Source: a virus (Duplodnaviria > Caudoviricetes). Taken from it: a stretch of DNA of 51,308 bases. Made by a program: the position numbers and the translations under genes. Below are positions 10,538-49,671 of this stretch, piece by piece. The notes beneath the pieces were generated by a model that was not told the origin of the DNA, did no database searches, and saw nothing but the letters and a program-made list of their open reading frames with translations. How positions within the stretch are numbered: position 1 is the stretch's first letter; each line of letters starts with the position of its first letter. The stretch is from the IMG/VR virus record IMGVR_UViG_3300006854_000010, positions 1-51,308 of that record, one strand, 5' to 3'.

Positions 10538-10578
10538 CCACACACCGCGCCAGTGGCGCATCAACAAGGATACTCCAA

Positions 10579-11169
10579 ATGATCGAGATCAAGCACCGCC
10601 ACACTGGCGCCGTACTCTACACGCACGACAACGCCAGCGGCATGACCATGCGCGATGCCGCGGAAGCCGCAGTCAAATCCAGGGCCAACCTGTACGGGGC
10701 CGACCTGTACGGGGCCAACCTGTACGGGGCCAACCTGTCCAGGGCCGACCTGTACGGGGCCGACCTGTACGGGGCCAACCTGTACGGGGCCAACCTGTCC
10801 GGGGCCAACCTGTACGGGGCCAACCTGTCTGGGGCCAACCTGTCCAGGGCTAACCTGTCCGGGGCCAACCTGTCCAGGGCCAACCTGTACGGGGCTAACC
10901 TGTACGGGGCCAACCTGTACGGAGACAAGATCGCCATATCTCCGCTGTCGCTCTCCGGTTTGCACTGGGATGTGACCGTCACCGAATTCAGGCTGCGGAT
11001 CGGTTACCAAGTTCATGCGCACGCCGCATGGCCCGGATTCAGCGCCAAGGAAATCGCGGCCATGGATAGCAAGGCCTCCGAATTTTGGACCGCCAACCGC
11101 GACATGCTGCTGATGATGTGTGCTGCGCAAGCAGCGCGAGCCGCAGCCGCCACCACGCCAACCATCTGA
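10579..11169 (+). CDS. Pentapeptide repeat protein
   Basis: About 16 tandem A(N/D)L(Y/S)(G/R) repeats; [14 protein letters not shown]-terminus; LRIG-Q-H C-terminal domain. Confidence 0.9.
10684..10923 (+). repeat. 15-bp tandem repeat array (GCCAACCTGTACGGG variants)
   Basis: About 16 near-identical 15-mers encoding the pentapeptides. Confidence 0.9.
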
Positions 11170-11210
11170 AACCACCGCCCGGAGGATCCTGGCAGACACT
11201 GGAGTAAACC

Positions 11211-11876: not shown

Positions 11877-12203
11877 TCACCCGGTCACCTCGATCCGCAC
11901 AGCCCAGGGGCCGCGCTCCTGGGCATAGATGTACCTCACCACGTCGCTGCGCTTGTCGTCCACGCCGAGCCACTGCGCCACCTGATCGCGCACGCCCTTG
12001 AGGCTGCCCGAGCAATTGTCGTCATCCAAACCATTCGATGGCGCAATGCGCGTCAAGCGAATCACGCATGGCACGGCCGGCTTCGTCCAGCCACGCAGAG
12101 CCCAGGCCACGACTTCTCGCTCCCCGCGGACTCTTCGCGCTCTAGCCCTCCAGTGCTCGCGGTCATTCTGACCGCGCCCGGTTCGCAGTGGCACCTCAAT
12201 CAC
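11877..12203 (-). CDS. RusA-like Holliday junction resolvase/endonuclease
   Basis: N.REHW..RAR, LDDDNCSGSLKGVRD...LGVDD acidic motif. Confidence 0.7.
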   Translation of the reverse strand: MIEVPLRTGRGQNDREHWRARARRVRGEREVVAWALRGWTKPAVPCVIRLTRIAPSNGLDDDNCSGSLKGVRDQVAQWLGVDDKRSDVVRYIYAQERGPWAVRIEVTG

Positions 12204-12999
12204 AGTATCGCCCCGGCCCCAGCCGAGAGAAGTCGCCGACATGCCCGGGATCCGGCGCATATCGAGATGGCGGCATCTCGAGGCGCTGCACCGTGACGCT
12301 CGCCGGCCAGACAACCTCTGGAGGCCCAGCTTGTACCTTGGCAGCACGCTGGCCGCCGCCGCGCATGGCCTGCGGTATCTCTCGCACGCTGGCGGCTACC
12401 GGCATCTTCGTCCACTTCGTGGATGCGCCCTGAGCCGCCACCACCTCACCGCCGCGCTTCTTGCCTGCCGCCATTGATGCTCGCTTTGCCGCAATATGCG
12501 CGTCCACGAGCTTGGCGCCGACCTCCTTGGCCGCTTGCGATGGATACCAGCGCAGGAAGTGCGCCGGCCCGTGGCGCCATGCCTCGCCAGAGCGCTCCAT
12601 CGCGCCCAGCAGCCTAGATGCATTGCCCGTCGTCACGCTCACGGCCTTGCTCACCTCGGTCACCGACATGCCGATTGCTGGTGCCGCAGAAAGCGCCGCA
12701 GCCACCTCCGGCACTCGGGCCGATCTTCCCATGTACGTCCGCACCGCTTGGCGTTGGGCGAATGTTGGATGATCCAGGGCGTATGCGGCGCAGTCTTCCG
12801 CGGAGCCGAAGTGCAGCACCAGCCTGCCGCGGCTCAGCCAGTGCGCTTCGCCTGACTTGCGCAGCTTGAAGAGCATATCGCGTACGCTCGACTCCGTGAG
12901 ACCTGTGATGGCCACCATTCTGCGCTGATCGATGCCGTCTTTGTGCTCTGCGAGCGCGGCCAGGATGGCAATGCGCGTGGTTGGTGGGCGGCCGATCAT
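12196..12999 (-). CDS. Tandem winged-HTH DNA-binding protein
   Basis: Two HTH-like segments (QRRMVAITGLTESSVRDMLFKL; VTEVSKAVSVTTGNASRLLGAM). Confidence 0.6.
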   Translation of the reverse strand: MIGRPPTTRIAILAALAEHKDGIDQRRMVAITGLTESSVRDMLFKLRKSGEAHWLSRGRLVLHFGSAEDCAAYALDHPTFAQRQAVRTYMGRSARVPEVAAALSAAPAIGMSVTEVSKAVSVTTGNASRLLGAMERSGEAWRHGPAHFLRWYPSQAAKEVGAKLVDAHIAAKRASMAAGKKRGGEVVAAQGASTKWTKMPVAASVREIPQAMRGGGQRAAKVQAGPPEVVWPASVTVQRLEMPPSRYAPDPGHVGDFSRLGPGRYCD

Positions 13000-13283
13000 T
13001 CGTTCAGCCCCATCAGGCGCCTGGCGGATGCCTCGATCGCGGCAAGCTGATTGTCGATCGTCACGTTCATCGGCATGCCTCGTGTCAGGGTGCGCACAAG
13101 CGCCATATGCTCGACCAGATCCTGCGCGTCCGAAACGGCCGGCGCGATCATGTCGGCCACCCTGATCCGTGATGCGTTGTACTGCGCTTTCTCGGACGCG
13201 CATTCTGCACACACCAACGGGCCGCCGCACTTTGCGAGCGAGCCATCTGGATTCGGCACAACCCATCCATGTCCGCCGGTCAT
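12996..13283 (-). CDS. Hypothetical zinc-finger-like protein
   Basis: GHGWV.P.PDG..AKCGGP..C..C motif. Confidence 0.6.
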   Translation of the reverse strand: MTGGHGWVVPNPDGSLAKCGGPLVCAECASEKAQYNASRIRVADMIAPAVSDAQDLVEHMALVRTLTRGMPMNVTIDNQLAAIEASARRLMGLNE

Positions 13284-14389
13284 GATGCGATCCCCAGAAT
13301 GCGCTCGAATCGCTCAGCCAGCACACGGTTTGCATCAGCCTTCTGCGCGCTGTCAGGCGTTCCTTTCGCCTCATGCAGCGCCTGGTAACGGCGCAGTGTT
13401 TCTGAGGCCAGAGTAAGTTCAGCTTCCAGGGACGCAATTCGAACCTTCTGTCGGGCCAGCTCAAACGCCTGCCTGCCGAGCCTGGCCACATCGTCCGGGT
13501 TGCTGCCGTCCAGTCGCGTCAGCGCGGTCACCTGCTCATCAGACATGGCCATGATCTTGTCGCAGTTGCTGTTTATGGCGGCCTGCAGCGCCGTGTCCAA
13601 TTTCTCGATGCGCTCCTTTGCTGCGTCGGCCACGTCTTCGGCGTGCCGGGCCTGGGCCGTCAGCGCCGCAATACGGGTATGCGCCATTTCTGCCACGCTC
13701 TTTGTGGACTCTTCCGCGTGCAGCAGCTTCGCCGTCAGCGCCGCCACCTCTGCAGCCCATTCTGTGCGCATCGCCTGGCGGCGGTCGTAGTGTTCGCGGA
13801 CATCGGCCTCCAGCGCCGAGATGCGCGCGCCCTTGGCCTCAAGGTCTTTTTGCAGCAGATCGCCACCATCCTCGGCAGCCGATAGCATGGCCTTCAGTTC
13901 CGCAATCTCCGCGTCCTTCGCTGCTTGTGCGTTGGATTGGCCAGCACACCAGTCCGCTAGCGCCTCAAAACAGCGGCGGAATTCTCTCCAGGTATCGCAA
14001 TACGGCAAAGAGCCGACCTCGCACTCGAATTTGTAGTCGCGCTCCAGGCACTCAGCGTAGGCGCGTCCGTTCTCGATTGCTCCCAGCGGCACGCCGGCCA
14101 GCATTGCCGCATCGCCAGCGGGCTGCGCGGCACGCACCTGCGGAGCGGCTGCTGGCGCCGGGCACTCGCTCGGGCAGCCGTGCAGACGCGCCTTGCACTC
14201 TTCCATGCACCCAAGGCGACATAGAGCGGCAGGCTGCGGCTCGACAGCCTGCCGCATTGCGCGGTACACGGAGTCGGCCGTGGCCATCAGGCTTTCGCGC
14301 GTGCCGCCAAGTCCGCAGTCACTCAGCGCCTGGGATCCAGCCTCCATCTGCGCGATGGAAGGGCCGTCTTCAGTTTGGTTCGTGGTCAT
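13280..14389 (-). CDS. Mosaic coiled-coil hypothetical protein (Ead/Ea22-like region)
   Basis: AAGGA RBS; heptad-rich, composite segments. Confidence 0.55.
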   Translation of the reverse strand: MTTNQTEDGPSIAQMEAGSQALSDCGLGGTRESLMATADSVYRAMRQAVEPQPAALCRLGCMEECKARLHGCPSECPAPAAAPQVRAAQPAGDAAMLAGVPLGAIENGRAYAECLERDYKFECEVGSLPYCDTWREFRRCFEALADWCAGQSNAQAAKDAEIAELKAMLSAAEDGGDLLQKDLEAKGARISALEADVREHYDRRQAMRTEWAAEVAALTAKLLHAEESTKSVAEMAHTRIAALTAQARHAEDVADAAKERIEKLDTALQAAINSNCDKIMAMSDEQVTALTRLDGSNPDDVARLGRQAFELARQKVRIASLEAELTLASETLRRYQALHEAKGTPDSAQKADANRVLAERFERILGIAS

Positions 14390-14880
14390 TCGAATTCCTT
14401 CTGCGCACCTGGCGCGTATTTGCCGTGGCCCAATGCCTTGCGCCAGTCGTCGCATTCTTCAGCCGTCATCTTGCGCCCAGACGGCAATATGCCACCACGG
14501 TGCAGTTCACAATCCCTGCGCAGCCATGCCCACCTGCGCCCAGGAGATATTGCCATCATCTCGGCGCTCGGCTCATTCATTTTTGCTATCGCTTCGGCCA
14601 TGCGCTTTATGTCTGGCTTCGGCGCAGGCAGCATCATTACTGGCGCATCCGGGCATCGACGGCACAGGTCGCGGAACTGCATGCTGTTCGGCGGGAAGTC
14701 GCTCGGCAGGTTTGCCAATGCGTACTTGACGCGCCTGACAGTCATACCATCCAGGTCATCAGCCCATACTGACTTAACCTTGTCCATATCCATGCCGTCA
14801 AACTTCGCCAGCCACTGCGTTGTGTACGCAGCGGCCAGGCGAACGAACAGCATGTCAATATATTCTCTTGATGCCGGCAT
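14386..14880 (-). CDS. Replication protein P-like/helicase-loader-like protein
   Basis: IDMLFVRLAAAY...W...FPPNSMQFRDLCR; directly downstream of an initiator-like gene. Confidence 0.55.
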   Translation of the reverse strand: MPASREYIDMLFVRLAAAYTTQWLAKFDGMDMDKVKSVWADDLDGMTVRRVKYALANLPSDFPPNSMQFRDLCRRCPDAPVMMLPAPKPDIKRMAEAIAKMNEPSAEMMAISPGRRWAWLRRDCELHRGGILPSGRKMTAEECDDWRKALGHGKYAPGAQKEFE

Positions 14881-15427
14881 CGTCGAACTCTACCGCGCCG
14901 CGTGATTGGGTCGCAGCGGCGCCGGGGGCAACGCGCTGCACGCGCTCGCGGGCCTCACGCTCACGCTTGGTTTCTGGCGTCAGTCTGGCGGGGTGAGGAA
15001 TAAGCCCGCGCTCGACAGCCCAGTCCAGCTTGAACCCGGCCCACCCCTGTTCTGCGCAGATCGTCACAAGCCTGGCCACCGTGATGCCGGCATCCTCGGC
15101 ATTGGCCTGGACGCGGCGCCATGCGGATCGCGTCAGCGGCAAACGCTTCTCCCGGCGCGCACGCAGCCAGCACTCAGCATCCAGCGCATCAACCCCGGCG
15201 CGGATCAGCTCGGCCGCGTTGACCGTCACGGCATTGTCGCCCACGGCCGGCTCCTTCTTGGCTCGCTTCGGATTTGCCTCTGCGCGACCAGCCGCCAGCC
15301 CTGCGCGGAAAACGGCATCCAGGCACACAAGCGCGCCTTCCGTGAGCATCCCCGTGCAGATGAGTTGGGCAGTGCTGGCTGCGTTGAATGCCGCGCTTGC
15401 GGCCTCGCGGATCTGCTCTGGAGTCAT
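14855..15427 (-). CDS. Protein with a phage replication-initiator C-terminal-like domain
   Basis: WLRARREKRLPLTRSAW...EDAGITV...CAEQGWAGFKLDW resembles the C-terminal domain of lambdoid O-type initiators. Confidence 0.55.
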   Translation of the reverse strand: MTPEQIREAASAAFNAASTAQLICTGMLTEGALVCLDAVFRAGLAAGRAEANPKRAKKEPAVGDNAVTVNAAELIRAGVDALDAECWLRARREKRLPLTRSAWRRVQANAEDAGITVARLVTICAEQGWAGFKLDWAVERGLIPHPARLTPETKREREARERVQRVAPGAAATQSRGAVEFDDAGIKRIY

Positions 15428-15660
15428 TCGATGACCTGCCACGCCTTGGAGCCCAGGTTGACCTTGATCTTTCCGACCTTGCGCAGCGCCTGGAGCCGCT
15501 TGTCCACTACGCGGTACGCAGGGCATAGCATCGGGCTGGTGGTCTCCTCGAACTGCTTGCAGTCGGGCTCCAGGGCGATTGTCAGCGCCATGGCCGAGAC
15601 CTTGCCTGCGCGAATCAGGTCCGGCATCTTGGCATCAAATTCTGTATAGTCGTGCTTCAT
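15424..15660 (-). CDS. Small winged-helix-like hypothetical protein
   Basis: RVVDKRLQALRKVGKI motif; AAGGA RBS. Confidence 0.6.
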   Translation of the reverse strand: MKHDYTEFDAKMPDLIRAGKVSAMALTIALEPDCKQFEETTSPMLCPAYRVVDKRLQALRKVGKIKVNLGSKAWQVIE

Positions 15661-16018
15661 GGGTTCCTTCGTTTGATCCCCCGCCAACATGGTCTGTGGC
15701 GGGGGTTGTCACCGGCGCTGCCCGGGTCTATCCGCTTCTGCGTTGGCTCCCCACTTTGCGCACCTCAAACCGTTTCAGGCTGCGCGGATGGGCGATGCGG
15801 TATGCCCAGGTTCGAACGGATCGCCACGAGCACTTTCGCCCATAGGCAGCACGGCATCTGTAGGCGCCGATTCGTAGGATCCGGCTCACTACCGGCATCC
15901 AGTGGCGCAGCGCTTCGGCTGCAGTCCGCCCAAGGCACACGGCAGCGCGCGGCAGCAGACCGGCCAGCCAGCACAGCAGTGCGGCGAGGCTGGTTATGGG
16001 GCGGGTGATTCGCATGGG

Positions 16019-16489
16019 TCAGAACTCTCCAGGCGCAACCTGGAAGCACGTGACGCCAGCATCGCGCCACATCTTCACAACGCGGTCACGATCATCGAAG
16101 ACAGCCACAAGCCTGCGCCTATCATCCACGAGCATGCCATCGAGCCATTGCTTTTTCAGCACGTCATCAGCCGTGAAATCGCCGGCCTGCCGCATGGTCA
16201 GTTCATGCCCATTCATCAAATCCCATCGCATGAAGCTCGTGTGCTTGACAAGCCAGTCAACCGTTTTGCCAGCAACCTCATCACTCCGGCCGCTGAAAAT
16301 CCACACGTCAGCCAACCGGCGCAAAGACTCCATCACGCGAATCACCGGTTCGTTCGGCTCATCCCTGTCACACGCATCGTAGAAGCGGCGCCACTTCGTG
16401 TCGTCGCGCGAGGGGTCTTCGATGATGTGGCGCCGATGGCCGATCAGCGCCAGCGTGCCGTCGAGATCGAAAATGTACAGTGGCTTCAC
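16019..16489 (-). CDS. HAD-family phosphatase (PseT/polynucleotide kinase phosphatase-like)
   Basis: FDLDGTLA, SGR, FDDRDRVVKMWRDAGVTCFQVAPGEF. Confidence 0.88.
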   Translation of the reverse strand: MKPLYIFDLDGTLALIGHRRHIIEDPSRDDTKWRRFYDACDRDEPNEPVIRVMESLRRLADVWIFSGRSDEVAGKTVDWLVKHTSFMRWDLMNGHELTMRQAGDFTADDVLKKQWLDGMLVDDRRRLVAVFDDRDRVVKMWRDAGVTCFQVAPGEF

Positions 16490-16606
16490 GCTTGATCCTT
16501 GCTTGTGCGTCCGATTCGCCCGGCCGCTTGGCGTGATTGGCACTATGCCTCAGACTTCATCGCGGAGGCATTGATATTTGCTATCGGATACTCGGCGAAT
16601 TAGTCA

Positions 16607-17395
16607 TCACACAAAACACATGCCGCTATCGCACGCGCCACGATCACGGCCAAAAAGTACCTCGTTGCGGTCATCGAAGTCAACAAACTCGATCGGCACG
16701 GCTTGATCCGTGAGCCATGCATGCGGGTCGCGCTGGCGTAGTTCGCGATCGAACTTGATCACCTTCGGCTTGTCGCGCGGATCGGCCATGACTTCGCGCC
16801 ATTCCTCCATGCGCTGGTTTGGGCACATCCAGCAGGCCGAACGCCCAGGCAGCGCGCCCAGCACCTGCAGTGCGTAGTGCGAGCATGCGCCACGGTCCAT
16901 GCCAAGCCTGATGAGCGGGAAGTCAACCTGCCACTTCCCCTGCGCCTTGGTGCTGTGTTGCGTCTTGTAGGCGCGGCCCATCTCGTCGGTTGAGAAGCCG
17001 ATCCAGTTCGTCGCAGCCTTCACGCCTAGCGATGTTGCCCAGCGCCGGCCCACATCGCGCTTCCACTCACCGGAGCAGTAGCCATGCAGTTTTCCTACCT
17101 CGCTGCCCTGCGTGGTAAATGCAGGTATCAACAGCGTCTCTCCCTTTGCGCCGCCGAAAAGGTCTTTCGTCGCCCAGTCCTCTTTCAATACGCGGTGCAT
17201 GATCACGCCCACGCTGGCCAGCGCCGGCACGATATAGCGGTCATGGTAGTCCCATGTCGCACTCTTCTCGCGCCCGGTGTCTGCAATGAAAGCCAAGTCA
17301 GGCTTCGGTAGCTTGCCAGTGACGATCAGCGCTGCAATCGCAGCAGATTGCGTGCCGCCGCCGTTGTTCCAAATCTGCGTCCGTTCTTCTGTCAC
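16607..17395 (-). CDS. PAPS-reductase-like (PP-loop) phage protein
   Basis: GGGTQS, FIADTGRE, C...WK, IGFSTDE, SACWMCP and terminal CDSGMCF motifs. Confidence 0.75.
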   Translation of the reverse strand: MTEERTQIWNNGGGTQSAAIAALIVTGKLPKPDLAFIADTGREKSATWDYHDRYIVPALASVGVIMHRVLKEDWATKDLFGGAKGETLLIPAFTTQGSEVGKLHGYCSGEWKRDVGRRWATSLGVKAATNWIGFSTDEMGRAYKTQHSTKAQGKWQVDFPLIRLGMDRGACSHYALQVLGALPGRSACWMCPNQRMEEWREVMADPRDKPKVIKFDRELRQRDPHAWLTDQAVPIEFVDFDDRNEVLFGRDRGACDSGMCFV

Positions 17396-17399
17396 GCGC

Positions 17400-18020
17400 A
17401 CCTCTCTAAGTAAGTCTCTGGAATTGAATTCGGCTTTGGACTGAAGAAAACTACACCCAATGCATAGAGAGTAAAGACAGTTCTGAGCGAAGCGAAGGAC
17501 CGGGAAGACCCCCCTAACCCCCCGAGCGTGTTTGCTTGGGAGTGGGAGAACCACCCGTTTCCGGTTACAGGACCTGACCTTGCAGCCATCATGAGAATGC
17601 GCTTTGTGGTGCGCTCGTTGGCGCGTGTCGGCCTATCGTGCCCAGCGACTGCACGGATAGCGCAGCGCCATGGACCCCCTCAAGGGGGCGGCATCCATGC
17701 CTTTCCCGACATCTTCCCCACGCGTGTGCGCTCTTCCGATGAGCGCACCACAAAACACACTCTCAAGCTCCTATCCGCTATCCTGATAAGCCCCTGCGGT
17801 GCCGCGCATAGGTTGCATGGTTCGCTTTCGCGAGCGGCCGTCAGGCGCCAGACGTGACAAAGCCCCGAGAATGCTTGAGAGGGGCGTGACCCTGGCGTGG
17901 GCGATCTAGACACATGGACGAACCGGGAAGGCTCTGTGCTTCGACAACACACGCCCCTCTCAAAAACTCTAGGGGCTTCACCCAGTTCGTCCGTATGCCA
18001 AGGTCGCCAAACCTGACACG
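17400..18020 (-). ncRNA. Candidate long structured non-coding RNA/leader
   Basis: No convincing ORF; several long inverted repeats; upstream promoter; G6TTAG6 tract. Confidence 0.5.
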
Positions 18021-18023
18021 ATC

Positions 18024-18053
18024 ATCCTATCACACTTCCTGGCGCTCGCTCAA
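18024..18053 (-). promoter_or_regulatory. Sigma70-like promoter (TTGAGC-18-TAGGAT, extended -10 TG)
   Basis: Minus strand reads ttgagc gagcgccaggaagtgTGa TAGGAT. Confidence 0.45.
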
Positions 18054-18054
18054 G

Positions 18055-18669
18055 TCAACCCCCTGCGTGATGCGTCAGATCAACATCGCATGCCACCTCG
18101 TTGCCCCAAACAGCCCAGCCGGCCCGCGGGCTGCGGGCGAACATCTCCAGGCGGGGCCCTGGGCTTACAGCCTCGACCATCGTGAAGAACTCTGGCGGCT
18201 TTGCGGAGTGCCGCGGGGCGCCATTGAAGTACGGCCGCTTCCAGTCGAACCAGGAGCGCCCAACACGCGACAGCGCCGTGGCACTGCCACGCCTGCAGAA
18301 CAGGCAGAACTCGCTCGACAGCCCGAACGAATCACCGCCCAGGCCGCCGCCCATCGTGGCCTTGGCCCACGTCAGCAGCGTGGACGGCTGGAATCCCCAT
18401 GCCCTCGCCACGGCGTACGATTGCTCGACATACTTGTTTATCGTCCACAGGTATAGGTGCGCATCCTTGTGCGCTATTGCTTCAACACCAAGCGACGCAA
18501 TGTCATTGACCGACATTGACGGATATGCAAGTTTTCGCGCAGCGTTGTCCGTCACGCCGAACACCTGTTTCCCATCTTGAACATCGTAGCACCCAATTGA
18601 TCGGCCGGCGCCGACTCGCCACGGCGGATCAGCCACGATGCACGAAAACCTGTGCTGTTCAATCGTCAC
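18055..18669 (-). CDS. MT-A70 family adenine methyltransferase
   Basis: IVADPPW, YPSMS, LYLWT, HSAKP, LEMFAR...GWAVWGNE. Confidence 0.9.
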   Translation of the reverse strand: MTIEQHRFSCIVADPPWRVGAGRSIGCYDVQDGKQVFGVTDNAARKLAYPSMSVNDIASLGVEAIAHKDAHLYLWTINKYVEQSYAVARAWGFQPSTLLTWAKATMGGGLGGDSFGLSSEFCLFCRRGSATALSRVGRSWFDWKRPYFNGAPRHSAKPPEFFTMVEAVSPGPRLEMFARSPRAGWAVWGNEVACDVDLTHHAGG

Positions 18670-18752
18670 AGCAGATCCTCCACGAGTTGATGCATGCCTC
18701 GCACGGGTTCATGTGCGTGCAGACGGCATCGGCCTCCGCATCGTTTGCCATG

Positions 18753-19130
18753 TCACCCTCCTTTCGTTGGCGCGTTCTTCTCGCGGCAGATCGCCTCAAC
18801 CGCCTTCGCGAAGTGCAGCCAGCCCCACGTCCTCATGAAGCCGTCGAGCATATCGGGGAGCGACTGGAAAGCGTGCGTGCGATCCTCATCTGCCAGCGGC
18901 ACCCAGGCCTGCTTCGCCTCTGTCCGGCCGGACTCCAGGGCACCGATGCGCGCGCGCAGTGCTGCGACCGCGGCGAGGTGTGCCGCCTCTGTCACAAGGC
19001 CATACTCACCGACTGGCAGGCTCGCGGCGGCCCGCGTCCAGTAGTTCAGCTCGTTGCTTCTGGCGTACGATGTCATGGTGGCCACCACTGGTGCCGCATC
19101 TACGGCGGTGACTGATTTTTCGTCTGTCAT
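18753..19130 (-). CDS. Hypothetical protein
   Basis: AAGGA RBS; FAKAVEA..REKN phage C-terminal motif. Confidence 0.6.
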   Translation of the reverse strand: MTDEKSVTAVDAAPVVATMTSYARSNELNYWTRAAASLPVGEYGLVTEAAHLAAVAALRARIGALESGRTEAKQAWVPLADEDRTHAFQSLPDMLDGFMRTWGWLHFAKAVEAICREKNAPTKGG

Positions 19131-19172
19131 GTCGTTCCTTCGGTTGGCGCGTCAACTATTTCGGAATGTTTG

Positions 19173-19388
19173 TCATAACAACTCTATCTGGTTGAATTTG
19201 AACAACCAGTATCTTGCATGGTACTGTTCAAGCACATCAACATCAGACCCTATTGCGCCAAACTGGCGCTCTAGTTTGAGAGTTGATTGCAGCACCGCAA
19301 ACAAATGTGGCTGCTGAAAAGACATAGCAATGTCTTCCTTCGCTTCATTTCTGAGCTTATCAATTACTCCCTGCGGGATGTTGGTCAT
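19173..19388 (-). CDS. Small AT-rich hypothetical protein
   Basis: MTNIPQG start behind a duplicated RBS. Confidence 0.5.
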   Translation of the reverse strand: MTNIPQGVIDKLRNEAKEDIAMSFQQPHLFAVLQSTLKLERQFGAIGSDVDVLEQYHARYWLFKFNQIELL

Positions 19389-19525
19389 ATCGTTCCTTCG
19401 GTTTGTGAATTGACTTCTGACCAGTGCGTGATCAGGCACCTCGATCATGGGCGGCTGGGATGAGATTGGCCAGCGCATGCCTATATAGCTGTGCTGGGCG
19501 AGTCGGAGCGCTAAGAGCGGGCGGG

Positions 19526-19882
19526 TCATGTCAGAAGTCCCAGGGGGGGGGTAGTGGTCGGGGCCGATCCTTTGCGGAGCGGGATCACATCTATGTCGAG
19601 CCATCCATCGCGCGTTGCGATGGCGGCGGCCATGTTTGCGGATGATTCGATTGAAAGCGGCCGGCACACGCGCACTTTCTTTGTCGTGCGGCGCCAATGG
19701 TCGGGATCCCACATGTCTGGCGACTTCGAGCCGGCACCGACTGCGATTGCGCGGGCGGTGGCATCGTGCGAGTTCCAGACTTGCCACGCGCGTTCGTTCG
19801 CCTGTTTGGCGCGCTCCAGTGCGCCGGGCGGATGGCCGACTACCTGGTAGCCTTTGTCGAATGACTTTGCTGACTTACTCAT
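19526..19882 (-). CDS. Hypothetical protein, first gene of the leftward operon
   Basis: AAAGGA RBS; downstream of the divergent promoter region. Confidence 0.55.
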   Translation of the reverse strand: MSKSAKSFDKGYQVVGHPPGALERAKQANERAWQVWNSHDATARAIAVGAGSKSPDMWDPDHWRRTTKKVRVCRPLSIESSANMAAAIATRDGWLDIDVIPLRKGSAPTTTPPLGLLT

Positions 19883-19899
19883 CTCGGCATCCTTTCTGC

Positions 19900-20020
19900 T
19901 TGCAATAGCAGATTATTGCACCATTGACCGCGCCGCAGAATGGCTTTTGCTATCTGCTGGCGCGCAGTCGATTGAGTAAATCAATCGCGTGGCGGCAGGT
20001 GGCGGCGGTACAGTAGCGCA
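19900..20020. promoter_or_regulatory. Divergent promoter region with two GATWG-N7-CAWTC boxes
   Basis: Strand switch; boxes at 19937-19955 and 19969-19987; -10-like AATAAT (minus strand) and TACAGT (plus strand). Confidence 0.6.
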
Positions 20021-20038
20021 TCAACAACGGAGCGACAG

Positions 20039-20332
20039 ATGAACCACTACGCACGATGCATCGACATCCTCGGCAAGGACCTGTCGCATGCCGAACTGGT
20101 GGCGATGATGCGCGAGATTGCGAAGGCAAGTCCGTCGCTGGTGGCGCGGGCCTACACAGCAACGCAGCCCAAGAATCCGCCGAAAGAGATCGACGAGAAG
20201 ATCCTGGCCCTGTGTGCTGGCGATCAATACATACAGGCCATCAAGATGTACCGCGAGCACTCTGGAGCCGGCCTCAAGCATGCCAAGGACTACGTTGACG
20301 CTGTGCGCGAGAACGCGAGGAACAAGACGTGA
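20039..20332 (+). CDS. Ribosomal protein bL12 (L7/L12) C-terminal-domain-like protein
   Basis: IQAIKMYREHSGAGLKHAKDYVD matches the L12 CTD pattern I..IK..R...G.GLKEAK..VD. Confidence 0.75.
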   Translation: MNHYARCIDILGKDLSHAELVAMMREIAKASPSLVARAYTATQPKNPPKEIDEKILALCAGDQYIQAIKMYREHSGAGLKHAKDYVDAVRENARNKT

Positions 20333-20534
20333 GCAACATAGCGCATGGCGGACCCGGAGAGATTCCGCGCTGCAAAGTCACCTGCCAAGCCGACGCCTTC
20401 GAGAATCACATTCGTGACATTGGCGTTGTGTTCGCATGCGAGTGGTTCGGCCATGCGGCGGACAGCGCGTTCACGGCAGAGACAATAAAGGCGCTGCGTG
20501 AGCGAAGCGCAAGTGTGGACAACAAGGCGGCAGA

Positions 20535-21398
20535 ATGAGCAACGAACTAACACAGATCACCAGCCATGGCGCTGGCGCAATCCAACCCGTGCAGCAGCAG
20601 GCCACTCCTGGGTACTTGCTGCAACTTGCTGTACAGCAGGGGGCCGACCTTGAGAAGTTGGAGCGCTTGATGGCGCTGCAGGAGCGATGGGAGGCGGCGG
20701 AGGCGAAGCGCTCTTTCGTCGCCGCCATGGCGGCATTCAAGGCCGAGCCAATGACGATCTTCAAGAAGAAGCAGGTTGGCTACACCACCAAGGACGGTGA
20801 CTTCGTGGGCTACACGCATGCTCGTCTGTCGGACGTTACTGACGTGGTTGTTCCAGCCATGGGGAGGCACGGGCTGTCGCATCGCTGGGACATCCGCCAG
20901 GATGGTGGACGAATCCACGTGTCATGCGTGGTCACACACCGGCTGGGCCACTCTGAGGCCGTAGTGATGGATAGCCCACCCGACACCAGCGGCAAAAAGA
21001 ACCCGCTGCAGCAGATCGCCAGCGCCACATCATACCTACAGCGCTACACATTGCTGGCTGTCACCGGCATGGCAACGAACGACATGGACAACGATGCCAG
21101 CGAAGCGGGCGGCGGCGCGGACACGAAAGACAAGGCATCCGATGTCGATGAATGGATAAAGACCGCCCAGGCCACCACCACGGATGCGGATGCTGCGAAG
21201 GTGTGGCAGGACGGCGGCAAGGCACTGACTGCCGCCAAAGATCGCGCAGGGTATGGCGCGTTCAAGGCAGCGGTGGTTGCGCACAGGACCGCACTCAAGG
21301 CGGCGCTCGATGAGCGCACCGCAGAAGCTGAAGCGACTCCGGTGGATGATGATTTCGTGCGTGACATGGATGCCGCAGAGGGGAAGACCGATGAGTGA
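20535..21398 (+). CDS. erf: ERF family ssDNA-annealing protein
   Basis: DLEKLERLM, HARLSDV, GL.H.W, H..GHSE, KNPLQQIASATSYLQRYTL. Confidence 0.9.
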   Translation: MSNELTQITSHGAGAIQPVQQQATPGYLLQLAVQQGADLEKLERLMALQERWEAAEAKRSFVAAMAAFKAEPMTIFKKKQVGYTTKDGDFVGYTHARLSDVTDVVVPAMGRHGLSHRWDIRQDGGRIHVSCVVTHRLGHSEAVVMDSPPDTSGKKNPLQQIASATSYLQRYTLLAVTGMATNDMDNDASEAGGGADTKDKASDVDEWIKTAQATTTDADAAKVWQDGGKALTAAKDRAGYGAFKAAVVAHRTALKAALDERTAEAEATPVDDDFVRDMDAAEGKTDE

Positions 21399-22512
21399 CA
21401 TCCTGTTCCGCTGTTCATCCATCGGCAAGCTGATGGGCGAGCCGAAGAAGAAGGGCGAGGCGCTCACGGACACCGCCAAGACATTCATCCGGCAGATGGC
21501 GGCCGAAGACATTTTCGGCGTGGATTTCTCTGTTTCCAGCCGCGAGATGCAGAAGGGCATCCAGTGCGAGGATCAAAGCATCGCGCTTTATAACTCGGTG
21601 TTCGGCAAGTCACTCACGAAGAACAGCGAGCGTCGCACCGATGATTGCCTGACCGGTGAATCGGATCTTCCAGATGTTGACGAGGTGGCCGACATCAAAA
21701 CGGCATGGTCTATCGCCACGTTTCCGCTGTCTGAAGAGGATGTGAGCGACACACAGCGAAAGCTGTACGAATGGCAAGTCCGGGCCTACATGCGACTGTG
21801 GAACAAGCCGCGTGGCCGCGTGGTGTACTGTCTCGTGGATACGCCCGAGGAACTGTGCAAATGGGAGGATCCGAGCTTGCACATGGTTGGCCACATCCCG
21901 GACCACATGCGCGTGACGACGTGGGCTTATGCGCGTGATCCAGCGCTTGAGGCCATGATGATTGACAAGATCAAACTGGCGCGCGAATACTATTCGCACG
22001 TCGTGCGACAGTTCCACGAAACACACATTCTCTTCACGGGGCACGGAATGGAATCACAAGCGAAACAAAACGACGAGGCCGATCAAGAGGCGGTGCGCGC
22101 AGAGGCGACACGGCTCGCTGCCATCGCGCAAGAGCAGGAAGAGCGTGGAGTTCGGGCGCGCGCAGGTGTTATCGCAGACGCGCTTGAGGCGATGCTTCCG
22201 CCCGTGGTTGACGCAGAGTTCGCAGGGGTGGCGCTGGCCCAACCGTCCGAAGCGATGCTGCGGGTTGTTGCGCTGATTGAAGAGGACATGCATATCATGC
22301 TGCAGGCCGGCGCTCCTGCCGAGGAGGCCACGCTCAAGCTGGGCACATTCTGCGACACCATAGGTGATGGATTCCATGTGTCTGAAGAGTTCCTCAAATC
22401 CATCGGAATCACCAAGCGCAACACGACTGGGCGTGCCGTGCTCTTCTATCAATCAGACTTCCAGCGCATCATCACGGCCATCATCGGCCACCTGCAGGAC
22501 TTCCAGCCATGA
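21391..22512 (+). CDS. YqaJ/lambda-exonuclease-like protein with C-terminal extension
   Basis: FRCSSIGKLM, MQKG..CE, TGE.D, DIKT, YEWQVRAYM; adjacent to erf. Confidence 0.8.
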   Translation: MSDILFRCSSIGKLMGEPKKKGEALTDTAKTFIRQMAAEDIFGVDFSVSSREMQKGIQCEDQSIALYNSVFGKSLTKNSERRTDDCLTGESDLPDVDEVADIKTAWSIATFPLSEEDVSDTQRKLYEWQVRAYMRLWNKPRGRVVYCLVDTPEELCKWEDPSLHMVGHIPDHMRVTTWAYARDPALEAMMIDKIKLAREYYSHVVRQFHETHILFTGHGMESQAKQNDEADQEAVRAEATRLAAIAQEQEERGVRARAGVIADALEAMLPPVVDAEFAGVALAQPSEAMLRVVALIEEDMHIMLQAGAPAEEATLKLGTFCDTIGDGFHVSEEFLKSIGITKRNTTGRAVLFYQSDFQRIITAIIGHLQDFQP

Positions 22513-29053: not shown

Positions 29054-29061
29054 TCACATCG

Positions 29062-29145
29062 TCCCCTGTAGCTCAGACGGGAGAGCACCAGCACGGAGAG
29101 ATACCGTGTTGTATGTCGGTGGTTCAACTCCATCCAGGGGGCTCA
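29062..29145 (+). tRNA. tRNA-like element with extended, non-canonical anticodon arm
   Basis: Acceptor TCCCCTG/CAGGGGG, D arm GCTC..GAGC, T arm GGTGG-TTCAACT-CCATC; 8-bp stem with AGAGATA loop. Confidence 0.55.
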
Positions 29146-29216
29146 AAATATAGGACGGCCCGAACTCAGGAGTCCTCGCGCGGCGGTTGCCTGGGCCAAA
29201 TTACACCGCGCACCTC

Positions 29217-29287
29217 GCCCCGGATTGGATTGCGGCGGACTTGTCTATCCGTGCAGCAGCGGTGTTCGATTCACCGCAGGGGCGCCA
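29217..29287 (+). tRNA. Degenerate tRNA-like element
   Basis: GCCCC/GGGGC-GCCA end, T arm CGGTG-TTCGATT-CACCG, 8-nt anticodon-like loop CTTGTCTA, poor D arm. Confidence 0.4.
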
Positions 29288-29294
29288 TAACGCA

Positions 29295-29370
29295 GCCCCG
29301 GTAGCTCAGCAGGTAGAGCAGCTACCTCGTAAGTAGTCGGTCGGTGGTTCTAGACCATCCCGGGGCACCA
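29295..29370 (+). tRNA. tRNA-Thr(CGT)
   Basis: 76-nt cloverleaf: GCCCCGG/CCGGGGC, D arm GCTC/GAGC, anticodon loop CT-CGT-AA, encoded ACCA end. Confidence 0.88.
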
Positions 29371-48708: not shown

Positions 48709-49671
48709 TTACTTGCCAGCTTGGCGCGCCTTCGCTACCGCAAGCTGCTGGTAACGCTCTTGCGCCTTGGTGTCCTTGTAATACCCGTTCGGGTCGTCGA
48801 GCATGCGCTTCTCGATTGCCGCCATCTCTGCCGTGAGCGATGCGCCGCCGTCTGTGCCATATGTCAGGGTCTGCCCGACATAGCCAGTTTCGCGCGCATG
48901 TTGGGCCAGCCACCGCACGATTGGCGCCTTGGCCAGTAGTTTGATGCCGTCAGCGCCCGCCGCCGACATGAAGGCATTGGCCACGTCATCGCCGGCCGCC
49001 GCGAGCATAGCCTTGATGCCGCCCACGTTACCCTCGAAGTCCCGCGGTCCCCACTCTTCGGTGAGTTCGATCTTGGCCGCCCTGGCGGTTTCTTGGTTGG
49101 CTGTCACGATGGCGGCAACCTCTTCTTCGCGCATCGCCATGTACGACTTGACCGCGGCATTGACCAGCGCGGGAGGGGCATGCTCCTTGTGCATCGACTG
49201 CAGGAAGCCGGCAACAAGGTTGCGGTCCTCTTCACCCATCACGACGCCATCGCCGAGGTCGAGCTTGTAGTCCTCAGGCTTCTGCGGGATGCCATTCTCG
49301 TCGCGCCACTCCTTCACCTGGGCCTCGGTGGCATCCTTCGCCAGCGGCGTCTTTAGCGATCCGCTGCTAATCTTGACGTTGGCCGCGCGCAGAGCCTTGA
49401 TGACCTCCTTGGGGCTGTTGTACCGAGCCGCCAGCTTGGTCATTGCCTCGTATTCTTTGCGGGCCTCGTCGGCCGCATCGGCAGGCAGCTCGCCGAGCAC
49501 TTCCAGGCGCCAATCCTTCGGCTCAGGTGGAGGCACTGGCGCGGCCGGGGCTGGGGCCGGGCTTGGTGCCGGGCCAGGAGCTGGCGCAGGGGCAGGGGTT
49601 GGGGCAGGGGCTGGGGCTGGGCTGGGCGCGGCCGGCGCGGGGGTCATGTCGACGACGGTTTCTTCAGGCAT
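48709..49671 (-). CDS. Capsid scaffolding protein
   Basis: N-terminal Pro-Ala repeat, GIPQKPEDY, L.EEWG..F; lies between portal and capsid. Confidence 0.8.
   Translation of the reverse strand: MPEETVVDMTPAPAAPSPAPAPAPTPAPAPAPGPAPSPAPAPAAPVPPPEPKDWRLEVLGELPADAADEARKEYEAMTKLAARYNSPKEVIKALRAANVKISSGSLKTPLAKDATEAQVKEWRDENGIPQKPEDYKLDLGDGVVMGEEDRNLVAGFLQSMHKEHAPPALVNAAVKSYMAMREEEVAAIVTANQETARAAKIELTEEWGPRDFEGNVGGIKAMLAAAGDDVANAFMSAAGADGIKLLAKAPIVRWLAQHARETGYVGQTLTYGTDGGASLTAEMAAIEKRMLDDPNGYYKDTKAQERYQQLAVAKARQAGK

What the first reader, a model, noticed from the sequence alone, without database searches (positions are those of the whole stretch)
17400..18053. ~620-nt structured non-coding region with a G6-TTA-G6 tract: candidate RNA-primed (R-loop) replication origin
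Seen: an unusually long stretch without a convincing ORF in a densely packed genome. It has a minus-strand extended -10 promoter at 18024-18053, several long inverted repeats, and CCCCCC-TAA-CCCCCC at 17509-17523, which reads G6TTAG6 on the presumed transcript about 500 nt from its start. Established: ColE1 RNA II (~555 nt, folded, G-rich tract) and mitochondrial CSB II (split G-tract) form persistent RNA-DNA hybrids that prime replication without an origin-binding initiator. Inference: this phage shows no polymerase, primase, helicase or iteron array, so it may start replication from a similar primer RNA.
Basis: partly seen in the sequence, partly recalled or inferred. Interest (0 to 1): 0.8.

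Follow-up and report, generated by a model that had tools for sequence, protein, structure and literature searches.

The report
Structured leader RNA in phage operon
The 659-base gap between two phage genes is a real, conserved, heavily folded non-coding RNA element that most likely acts as a transcription stop/go switch ahead of the DNA-modification and replication genes, not as a proven replication origin.

Summary
Window 17396-18054 is a 659-nt gap with no coding signal between an MT-A70 methylase and a PAPS-reductase-like gene, both on the minus strand. It folds far better than shuffles. C6-TAA-C6 lies at 17509-17523 and is the only G5N3G5 in 51 kb. No Rfam family matches.

Two uncultivated phages carry versions at the same operon position (L004 and G550). 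Contigs of four metagenome runs carry pieces.

The element is modular:
- A promoter-like start.
- A 5' module with two interleaved helices (A:A', B:B') followed by GGGGC plus U3-5, present in 3 of 3 elements. A:A' shows four compensatory pairs.
- A three-way junction, also with compensatory pairs.
- A swappable 158-nt domain.
- A split G tract (G5-6, 2-3 U/A, G6) in 3 of 3.
- About 90 nt of 3' sequence, about 96% identical between window and G550.

G-U pairs and energies favour an RNA read from the minus strand.

My best reading (about 0.45) is a cis-acting leader with a two-state terminator/antiterminator. The R-loop origin idea is neither supported nor excluded (about 0.1). Its premise is weakened by adjacent weak matches to O-like and P-like replication genes, and the presumed primer would meet the terminator-like hairpin about 160 nt from its start. 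The G tract's role is unexplained.

The parts
18055..18669 (-). Upstream gene: MT-A70 DNA methyltransferase. Its stop TGA (18055-18057) abuts the element.
   Evidence: Pfam PF05063 E 3.5e-18; phrog_359 E 3.3e-42.
18024..18053 (-). Promoter-like sequence: TTGAGC (18048-18053), 18-nt spacer, TGATAGGAT (18024-18032). The transcription start is inferred near 18017.
   Evidence: Read from the sequence. Recurs in G550 as TTGAAC-18-TGCTAGGAT. The TGn-TAGGAT survives the differences listed for runs X3 and X4. It falls below the scan tool's threshold and L004 has no good -10 here.
17995..18019 (-). 5' hairpin S1 (GUGUCAGGUU..GACCUUGGCAU). Its 3' strand overlaps the outer part of arm A.
   Evidence: Consensus fold of window and G550 with 10 pairs, three of them G-U. 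The stretch is identical in G550.
17900..18008 (-). Helix A:A' (arms 17981-18008 and 17900-17927), the candidate antiterminator. It encloses arm B.
   Evidence: Inverted repeat of 28 nt, 79% complementary; duplex -40.3 kcal/mol. Against G550 there are four pairs changed on both sides plus a coordinated 3-bp insertion in both arms. An analogous 13-bp perfect A:A' sits in the same order in L004.
17857..17978 (-). Helix B:B' (arms 17950-17978 and 17860-17888) followed by GGGGC-UUUGU (U tract 17857-17861): a terminator-like long hairpin, interleaved with A:A'.
   Evidence: Inverted repeat of 29 nt, 86% complementary; duplex -47.7 kcal/mol. The same AAGCCCC...GGGGCUU base plus U3-5 is present in G550 and L004. 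The 5' module folds at z -4.4, with 0 of 200 shuffles as good.
17792..17845 (-). Three-way junction, including the hairpin UCGC-GAAA-GCGA (17822-17833), a four-base GAAA loop.
   Evidence: Consensus fold with G550: three pairs changed on both sides, at columns 193/236, 199/212 and 201/210. Bases 17746-17838 are 99-100% identical in contigs of runs X3, X4 and X23.
17600..17757 (-). Variable multi-stem domain (M3), closed by a 17-bp stem (UUUGUGGUGCGC...GCGCACCACAAA).
   Evidence: Aligns to L004 1296-1454: 82% identity by BLAST over 157 nt, 91% mean column identity over 159 columns with one 1-nt indel, and compensatory pairs. G550 has a short hairpin instead. A run-X4 contig has 167 other letters instead.
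17509..17523 (-). Split G tract: G6-UUA-G6 on the minus-strand transcript.
   Evidence: Unique in the window. G5-TAA-G6 is unique in L056/L004. G550 has G6-TT-G6. Its local pairing partner differs between elements and is no more stable than shuffles.
17420..17508 (-). AU-rich 3' block, very conserved, including the 11-bp palindrome GAATTCAATTC (17421-17431).
   Evidence: About 96% identical to G550, with 4 substitutions in about 99 nt, while flanking proteins are 38-60% identical. AT content is 54-59%. In L004 an HNH gene splits this block.
16607..17406 (-). Downstream gene: PAPS-reductase-like. RBS GAGAGG at 17401-17406, GTG start at 17395.
   Evidence: phrog_424 E 2e-21; 96% identical protein in L004.

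Best explanation
The gap is a modular, cis-acting structured leader RNA read from the minus strand, in the same direction as the flanking genes. It sits in the early operon between the first early genes and the DNA-modification and replication genes.

Its 5' module is a two-state switch. A long hairpin (B:B'), followed by GGGGC and a short U run, would stop RNA polymerase about 160 nt into the element. A competing helix (A:A') encloses one arm of that hairpin. It can form first during transcription and would let the polymerase read on. A 5' hairpin (S1) competes in turn with A.

Shown: the interleaved helices, their near-equal energies, their presence in three elements, and compensatory changes in A:A' and in the junction behind it.

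Inferred: that the hairpin terminates transcription, that the helices act as alternatives, and that some phage or host factor sets the choice.

Unexplained: the downstream parts, namely the three-way junction, the swappable domain, the split G tract and the AU-rich block with its palindrome. They may be further control sites, for example a second terminator at the G tract as in L004, or an operator.
For: - Non-coding.
- Fold better than shuffles: whole region z -4.5. The 5' module gives z -4.4, -4.1 and -5.1 in window, G550 and L004, with 0 of 200 shuffles as good in each.
- Interleaved repeats in the order A, B, A', B' in 3 of 3 elements. This includes L004, whose sequence there does not align with the window's.
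- GGGGC followed by UUUGU, UUUUCC or UUUUUCUUU in 3 of 3.
- Forced conformers: window -67.9 (A) against -78.1 (B); G550 -78.8 against -75.4; L004 -64.3 against -77.1 kcal/mol.
- A:A' between window and G550: four pairs changed on both sides plus a matched 3-bp insertion.
- Seven pairs changed on both sides in the consensus fold of the 5' half, and six in the M3 fold.
- Strand: consensus energy -89.5 against -75.9 for the 5' half, and -69.0 against -61.0 for M3. In total 22+7 G-U cells would be mismatches on the other strand.
- Same orientation and same place in three syntenic phages, from the upstream stop codon to about 25-33 nt before the next start codon, 1.3-2.5 kb ahead of the O-like and P-like genes.
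- No strong terminator separates the element from the next gene in window or G550.
Against: - Only three full elements could be fetched. Covariation therefore rests on pairs of sequences, and no statistical test such as R-scape was possible.
- No transcript data: no listed run is on record as RNA.
- The U tracts in window and G550 are short (3-4 U). The scan tool, which allows loops of 3-8 only, did not call B:B' a terminator.
- A:A' and B:B' share no bases in window or G550. Their exclusivity is a topological argument, and a partial pseudoknot cannot be ruled out.
- No sensor, leader peptide or boxA/boxB-like site was identified.
- This reading leaves about 450 nt unexplained, including the conserved G tract and the most conserved 3' block.
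- If the promoter-like start is real, the element could instead give a stand-alone RNA.
Confidence: 0.45

Rival explanations
1. It is a stand-alone large structured non-coding RNA of about 500-600 nt, made from its own promoter and acting in trans or as an RNA-only assembly. This would resemble the large ornate phage-associated RNAs. The downstream gene would then be expressed separately.
For: - Promoter-like TTGAGC-18-TGnTAGGAT shared with G550, followed by a 5' hairpin right at the inferred start.
- Structure with compensatory changes continues well past the terminator-like hairpin, in the junction and in M3.
- Conserved blocks alternate with swappable peripheral domains.
- Pieces occur in contigs of the four runs laid: drinking water, freshwater, marine and wastewater by their records.
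Against: - No Rfam family matches, including GOLLD and ROOL, even at E<=10.
- No clear 3' terminator before the next gene in window or G550.
- L004 lacks a good -10.
- The internal terminator-like hairpin lies about 160 nt from the start.
- The conserved block runs up to the ribosome-binding region of whatever gene follows.
Confidence: 0.22
2. A transcript from the promoter at 18024-18053 folds and, at the split G tract about 500 nt downstream, forms a persistent RNA-DNA hybrid, or a hybrid G-quadruplex as at mitochondrial CSB II. That hybrid primes DNA synthesis in the AU-rich block that follows.
For: - The split G tract is kept as sequence, not as a conserved hairpin, in 3 of 3 elements. By the differences listed, it is also kept in the contigs of runs X3, X4 and X9 that cover it.
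- It is unique in the window and in L056.
- It is followed by the most conserved and most AT-rich part of the element, which could be an unwinding or start zone.
- No iteron array was found in 12000-20600.
- The element lies just upstream of the replication genes.
- The CSB II hybrid G-quadruplex is documented (PMC3488243; only the listing and start of the abstract were seen).
Against: - O-like and P-like genes are present, and a twice-repeated 12-bp palindrome inside the O-like gene is a rival origin candidate.
- A conserved terminator-like hairpin would stop many transcripts 160 nt from the start.
- G content is only about 19% in the 78 nt after the tract.
- The distance from the start to the G tract is not kept: about 494 nt in the window and about 357 nt in G550.
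- No antisense promoter was found.
- No similarity to any plasmid in PLSDB and no Rfam match.
- An HNH gene sits between the G tract and the rest of the 3' block in L004.
Confidence: 0.1
3. It is a DNA-level element, with the RNA folds as by-products of inverted repeats. It could be an origin or binding platform for the O-like initiator, or a recombination and homing hot spot at which accessory genes are swapped.
For: - The M3 domain is shared by the two phages whose O-like proteins are 84% identical (window and L004). It is replaced in G550, whose O-like protein is 49% identical.
- Modules have different histories. One block is 100% identical in run X4, whose neighbouring block is about 87% identical. 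Against G550 the pattern is reversed.
- Different genes follow the element in different phages, and an HNH endonuclease is inserted in L004.
- An 11-bp palindrome lies in the 3' block.
Against: - G-U pairs and one-sided A-U/G-U changes are neutral only in RNA of the minus strand: 29 G-U cells, and a lower consensus energy on that strand.
- There are no iterons or repeated binding motifs in the element.
- No second copy exists in the phage.
Confidence: 0.13

Closest known systems
Terminator/antiterminator attenuators and the phage lambda nutR-tR1 region (knowledge recalled, not from a call)
   Same: Position between the first early genes and the replication genes in a lambda-like gene order. 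A GC-rich hairpin plus U run with a competing upstream helix, and a further 5' hairpin competing with that helix.
   Different: No boxA/boxB-like site was noticed by eye, and no motif search for one was run. No N-like protein was identified. The terminator here would be intrinsic, whereas lambda tR1 is Rho-dependent. The antiterminator encloses the terminator arm instead of sharing bases with it (window, G550). The element is 480-660 nt long with extra domains. There is no sequence similarity to any cultured phage in the collection searched.
ColE1 RNA II primer and mitochondrial CSB II (ColE1 recalled; for CSB II, PMC3488243, listing and start of abstract seen)
   Same: A promoter-like start, several hundred nt of folded RNA with alternative folds, and a G run in the transcript (G6-N3-G6 against G6AG8 at CSB II).
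   Different: No antisense RNA I-like promoter. No similarity to plasmids. An internal terminator-like hairpin. A G-poor stretch after the tract. The phage has O-like and P-like genes. Priming was not tested.
Large ornate phage-associated RNAs GOLLD and ROOL (Rfam families; biology recalled, and the listing of 10.1101/2024.12.08.627333 seen)
   Same: Size of about 500-650 nt, phage origin, conserved core with variable peripheral domains, found in environmental metagenomes.
   Different: No match to their Rfam models, even at E<=10. Not next to the phage's tRNA genes, which lie at 29061-29370. It abuts the ribosome-binding site of the next gene.
RNA-based immunity leaders of phages P4 (CI RNA) and P1 (c4 RNA) (recalled, not from a call)
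   Same: A promoter followed by a structured leader with internal complementary segments, ahead of genes that include replication functions.
   Different: ARAGORN found no tRNA-like fold in the element. No complementarity between upstream segments and the downstream start region beyond chance. No sequence similarity.

Membership tests
ColE1-type RNA II primer origin | Constitutive promoter several hundred nt upstream of the DNA start site | tested here: inconclusive
   TTGAGC-18-TGATAGGAT at 18024-18053 scores 8 of 12. It is shared with G550, below the scan threshold, and not kept in L004.
ColE1-type RNA II primer origin | Antisense RNA I promoter opposite the 5' stem-loops | tested here: not met
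   0 promoter-like sites on either strand in 16500-19500. No Rfam match of any family at E<=10; I recall that Rfam holds an RNAI family. The consensus scan is a weak test.
ColE1-type RNA II primer origin | G run in the RNA that anchors a persistent hybrid | tested here: met
   G6-UUA-G6 at 17509-17523. Conserved as G5-6, 2-3 U/A, G6 in 3 of 3 elements.
ColE1-type RNA II primer origin | RNase H processing and Pol I extension; replication without an initiator | not testable with these tools
   Needs bench work. O-like and P-like genes are present, which argues against initiator independence.
ColE1-type RNA II primer origin | Sequence relatedness to known ColE1-type origins | tested here: not met
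   No blastn match in 72,556 plasmid records at E<=0.01.
Mitochondrial CSB II-type G-quadruplex primer site | Split G run on the non-template strand that terminates transcription and stabilises an R-loop | tested here: inconclusive
   The split G run is present and conserved. Termination and the hybrid G-quadruplex cannot be tested here. The sequence after the tract is G-poor.
Intrinsic-terminator attenuator (terminator/antiterminator switch) | GC-rich hairpin directly followed by a U run | tested here: met
   AAGCCCC...GGGGCUU plus UUUGU, UUUUCC or UUUUUCUUU in window, G550 and L004. The U runs are short in two of the three, and the scan tool does not call long-loop hairpins.
Intrinsic-terminator attenuator (terminator/antiterminator switch) | A competing helix that excludes the terminator, with comparable energy | tested here: met
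   Interleaved A:A' and B:B' in 3 of 3. Forced-conformer energies lie within 3.4-12.8 kcal/mol of each other. In L004, A' overlaps the inner terminator arm by 3 nt.
Intrinsic-terminator attenuator (terminator/antiterminator switch) | Evolutionary support for both helices | tested here: inconclusive
   A:A' has four compensatory pairs plus a matched insertion. B:B' has one compensatory pair and two one-sided G-U changes, and its arms are otherwise identical in the two alignable sequences. Only two sequences align.
Intrinsic-terminator attenuator (terminator/antiterminator switch) | A sensed signal (ribosome, protein, ligand or tRNA) | not tested
   No leader peptide or known binding motif was identified. 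The upstream 125-aa protein gave no informative look-alike.
GOLLD / ROOL large ornate RNAs | Match to the family covariance model | tested here: not met
   No Rfam match at the gathering score or at E<=10 in the window region. Only sub-threshold hairpin hits in L145 and L004.
Lambda-type origin (iterons bound by the O protein) | Array of direct repeats in or near the initiator gene | tested here: not met
   No repeat family of 3 or more copies within 120 nt in 12000-20600, and none in the element. Two copies of the palindrome GATGCCGGCATC lie 213 nt apart inside the O-like gene.

The most novel reading that the evidence does not exclude
The element is an RNA-primed origin. A regulated transcript (the terminator/antiterminator switch would set the priming frequency) reaches the conserved split G tract. 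There it forms a persistent hybrid or hybrid G-quadruplex, and it primes leading-strand synthesis in the highly conserved AU-rich block. The O-like and P-like proteins would then only load the host helicase. This would be a CSB II/ColE1-like origin in a tailed temperate-type phage.
Probability: 0.1. Interest if true: 0.8.

Novelty: new variant of a known kind. Interest (0 to 1): 0.45.

Why it matters
If the leading reading is right, this is an undescribed and unusually large, modular control region. It would gate expression of the DNA-modification and replication genes in a lineage of uncultivated phages, and pieces of it occur in contigs of drinking-water, freshwater, marine and wastewater runs.

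It offers three concrete things to test:
- a clean candidate for a two-state RNA switch with an unknown sensor;
- a conserved split G tract whose role is open;
- a block of non-coding sequence far better conserved than the neighbouring proteins (about 96% against 38-60%), at which different accessory genes, and in one case a homing endonuclease, are exchanged.

If the R-loop reading were right, it would bring a plasmid- and mitochondrion-style priming mechanism into lambda-like phages.

Tried and rejected
- **Known RNA family.** Rfam gave only the two tRNAs at the gathering score and nothing in 17250-18200 at E<=10. Only sub-threshold miRNA-like hairpin hits appeared in L145 and L004. ARAGORN found no tRNA- or tmRNA-like fold in the element or its relatives.\n- **Hidden protein.** See the observation check.\n- **Similarity to cultured phages or plasmids.** None.\n- **More homologues.**\n - Two patterns from the M3 core found only L004's contig in IMG/VR.\n - The closing-stem pattern gave 61 stretches; nhmmer kept only L004/L056.\n - One metagenome scan gave 6 stretches, all matching the pattern alone.\n - A 22-mer from the 100%-identical block gave 0 IMG/VR hits.\n - A 23-mer and a 20-mer found only G550.\n - Thirteen prophage-like loci with the PAPS-reductase-like gene lack the element.\n - Covariance model R1 (M3) found nothing in 2 genomes, nor in 151 genomes of the order of G001.\n - BLAST of the whole gap found only chance-size hits in 400 genomes scored of 401 drawn from the class of G002 (one genome not scored), and nothing in 401 of its order. 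These are samples: 'not found in those searched'.\n- **Second copy in the phage.** None.\n- **Expression.** No RNA holder was listed among 24 runs. One run labelled RNA-Seq is probably DNA.\n- **Anti-RBS pairing.** Pairing between arm B' and the start region of the next gene is no better than shuffled targets (-25.7 against a null of -24.2, sd 2.7) and is not conserved.\n- **G tract as a conserved hairpin arm.** Local folds are not better than shuffles (z +1.4, -0.8, -0.7) and the partners differ. In L004 alone the scan calls it a terminator.\n- **Rho-type site after the G tract.** The C/G ratio is only about 1.4, which is weak.\n- **M3 as a miniature transposon.** It has 17-bp terminal inverted repeats, but no target duplication was seen and no extra copies turned up in the genomes searched.\n- **GC skew for the origin.** The cumulative minimum is near 19.25 kb, which is where gene orientation switches, so it says nothing about an origin.\n- **Upstream 125-aa protein as an antiterminator.** No Pfam, PHROG or NCBIfam hit, and no Atlas hit of 0.9 or more.\n- **O-like protein.** Only 5 homologues, none with a Pfam domain. 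NCBIfam gave nothing.
Full report
**What the window is**

The window is a complete 51,308-nt virus record with direct terminal repeats and about 62% G+C. Its layout is lambda-like.
- A plus-strand operon carries an ERF recombinase (20535-21398) and an exonuclease (21253-22512).
- A minus-strand operon runs from about 19.9 kb downwards. It passes through an MT-A70 methylase, the gap in question, a PAPS-reductase-like gene, a PNKP-type phosphatase, an O-like gene and a P-like gene.
- It continues to the small and large terminase subunits.

The nearest cultured phage has a PAPS-reductase-like protein only 47.5% identical. The nearest prophage-like loci are in a Steroidobacteraceae assembly (85%) and a Propionivibrio assembly (72%).

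**The observation**

The gap is 17396-18054, 659 nt. The codon-phase GC pattern of the flanking genes vanishes inside it. The two ORFs tested have no relatives among 5.8 billion proteins.

The three long inverted repeats are real. Both strands fold better than shuffles, the minus strand more strongly: -289.8 kcal/mol, z -4.5, against -255.3, z -4.1.

C6TAAC6 sits at 17509-17523 and is the only G5N3G5 in the window. The expected count is 0.09, and 7 of 100 shuffles had at least one.

The promoter-like motif at 18024-18053 exists but is weak: 8 of 12, and the scan tool did not call it.

**Relatives**

Only two stored records carry versions.
- **L004** (a 7.7-kb IMG/VR contig; its PAPS-reductase-like protein is 96% identical) has a 557-nt non-coding stretch at 1101-1657 that folds at z -5.8.
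- **G550** (a 42-kb IMG/VR record, syntenic with the window from its 10 kb to 26 kb) has a version about 480 nt long.

Laying four metagenome runs on the region showed contigs with pieces at 80-100% identity.
- Bases 17746-17838 are 99-100% identical in three runs.
- Bases 17395-17611 are about 88-95% identical in three runs.
- One 1,541-nt contig joins both blocks but has 167 other letters in place of 17612-17745.

In total, 22 further runs from about 17 studies hold 7-15% of the sampled words. Only four of these were laid.

The element was not found in any of the following:
- 50,697 phage records;
- 72,556 plasmid records;
- 13 loci with the neighbouring gene;
- the sampled bacterial genomes.

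**Anatomy on the minus strand**

1. *Boundary and start.* The element begins at the stop codon of whatever gene lies upstream. The promoter-like motif follows. The next 45 nt or so are identical in window and G550 and form a 5' hairpin.

2. *Two interleaved helices.* A (17981-18008) pairs with A' (17900-27). B (17950-78) pairs with B' (17860-88). The base of B:B' is AAGCCCC/GGGGCUU, followed by a short U run.
   - The same order A, B, A', B' and the same GGGGC-U3-5 occur in G550 and in L004. L004's sequence here cannot be aligned with the window's.
   - Between window and G550, A:A' keeps pairing through four double changes and a matched 3-bp insertion.
   - The two conformers are close in energy, and the winner differs between elements.
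   - With one or two bases between A and B, a 29-bp B:B' cannot coexist with A:A'. I therefore read them as alternatives; this step is inference.
   - The 5' hairpin overlaps the outer part of A, giving a three-way competition. L004 has the analogous arrangement, and there A' overlaps the inner terminator arm.

3. *Three-way junction* (17792-17845), with three double changes against G550.

4. *A 158-nt multi-stem domain* (17600-17757). It is shared with L004, with a 1-nt indel and compensatory pairs. G550 has a short hairpin in its place.

5. *The split G tract.* It reads G6-UUA-G6 in the window, G6-UU-G6 in G550 and G5-UAA-G6 in L004. By the listed differences, two runs carry a variant spacer. 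Its pairing partner is not conserved and the local fold is unremarkable. What is kept is the G runs themselves.

6. *An AU-rich block* (17420-17508). It is about 96% identical to G550, although the neighbouring proteins are 38-60% identical. It ends in the palindrome GAATTCAATTC, 26-33 nt before the next start codon. In L004 an HNH endonuclease gene is inserted inside this block.

The gene that follows the element differs from phage to phage:
- a PAPS-reductase-like gene in the window;
- a DPPY methylase in G550;
- the HNH gene and then the PAPS-reductase-like gene in L004;
- other reading frames in the run contigs.

**RNA or DNA, and which strand**

Consensus folds are more stable on the minus strand: -89.5 against -75.9, and -69.0 against -61.0. 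The 29 G-U cells in those folds would be A-C mismatches on the other strand. Four one-sided changes keep pairing only through G-U. This favours an RNA read in the direction of the genes. It rests on pairs of sequences only.

**Mechanism**

The best-supported part is the 5' module. It looks like a terminator with a competing antiterminator, at the point of a lambda-like early operon where delayed-early genes begin.
- Shown: the helices, their conservation of form, their covariation and their energies.
- Inferred: termination, mutual exclusion, and control by a factor.

The remaining 450 nt or so, including the G tract and the most conserved block, are not explained by this.

The conserved G tract, followed by an AT-rich conserved block, remains a fair resemblance to CSB II and ColE1. 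Several things count against the idea:
- The phage has adjacent O-like and P-like matches. They rest on PHROGs alone.
- The O-like gene contains a twice-repeated perfect palindrome, shared with L004 but not with G550.
- A terminator-like hairpin lies 160 nt from the presumed start.
- The start-to-tract distance varies, about 494 against about 357 nt.
- The stretch after the tract is G-poor.

GC skew cannot decide, because its turning point coincides with the switch in gene orientation.

**Limits**

- Only three elements could be read in full, and the run contigs were visible only as difference tables.
- No transcript data exist.
- The metagenome and genome scans were capped at one each.
- Statements about ColE1, lambda, P4/P1, GOLLD/ROOL biology and R-loop sequence rules are recalled knowledge. 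For CSB II, I saw the listing and the start of the abstract of PMC3488243.
- Two literature searches listed nothing describing this element. That is not proof that it is unpublished.

Noticed in passing
window 14870-14881 and 15083-15094; L004 5266-5277 and 5482-5493: The perfect 12-bp palindrome GATGCCGGCATC occurs exactly twice in the window, 213 nt apart inside the O-like gene. It occurs twice at the same spacing in L004's O-like gene, and not in G550, L005 or L123. These may be initiator-binding sites (a lambda-style origin inside the initiator gene), or they may reflect a protein repeat.
   Followed up: partly
L004 1658-2515: A 285-aa HNH endonuclease gene (Pfam HNH E 1.2e-7; phrog_144 E 3e-18) is inserted inside the conserved 3' block of the element, between the G tract and the palindrome. 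It looks like a free-standing homing endonuclease using the conserved non-coding sequence as its landing site.
   Followed up: partly
window 10682-10922: A 15-nt unit (GGGCCAACCTGTACG) repeated 16 times at 90% match, inside overlapping ORFs 10579-11169 (+) and 10561-11199 (-). A five-residue protein repeat is possible.
   Followed up: no
window 19543-19551: A run of nine G on the plus strand (C9 on the coding minus strand), near the 3' end of ORF 19526-19882. Such a homopolymer could slip during replication.
   Followed up: no
window 19127-19147 and 19385-19405: Two small minus-strand genes start with nearly the same ribosome-site and start block (CGAAGGAACGA-C/T-ATGAC). Both places also match G550. 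The second gene (about 72 aa, 19173-19388) lies in a stretch of only about 50% G+C.
   Followed up: no
window 29061-29144 and 29295-29370: Two phage tRNA genes, tRNA-Ser(AGA) and tRNA-Thr(CGU), at the turn between the plus-strand and minus-strand gene blocks.
   Followed up: no
window 49543-49627: A G-rich repeat with periods of 6, 12 and 18 nt (GGGGCA and GGCCGGGGCTGG units), inside ORF 48709-49671 on the minus strand.
   Followed up: no
window 18043-18075; L004 about 1090-1130: About 38 nt spanning the last codons of the MT-A70 gene, its stop codon and the -35-like hexamer are identical in L004. There the upstream ORF (813-1100, 95 aa) is not a recognisable methylase. The module boundary therefore lies inside the end of the upstream gene.
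   Followed up: partly
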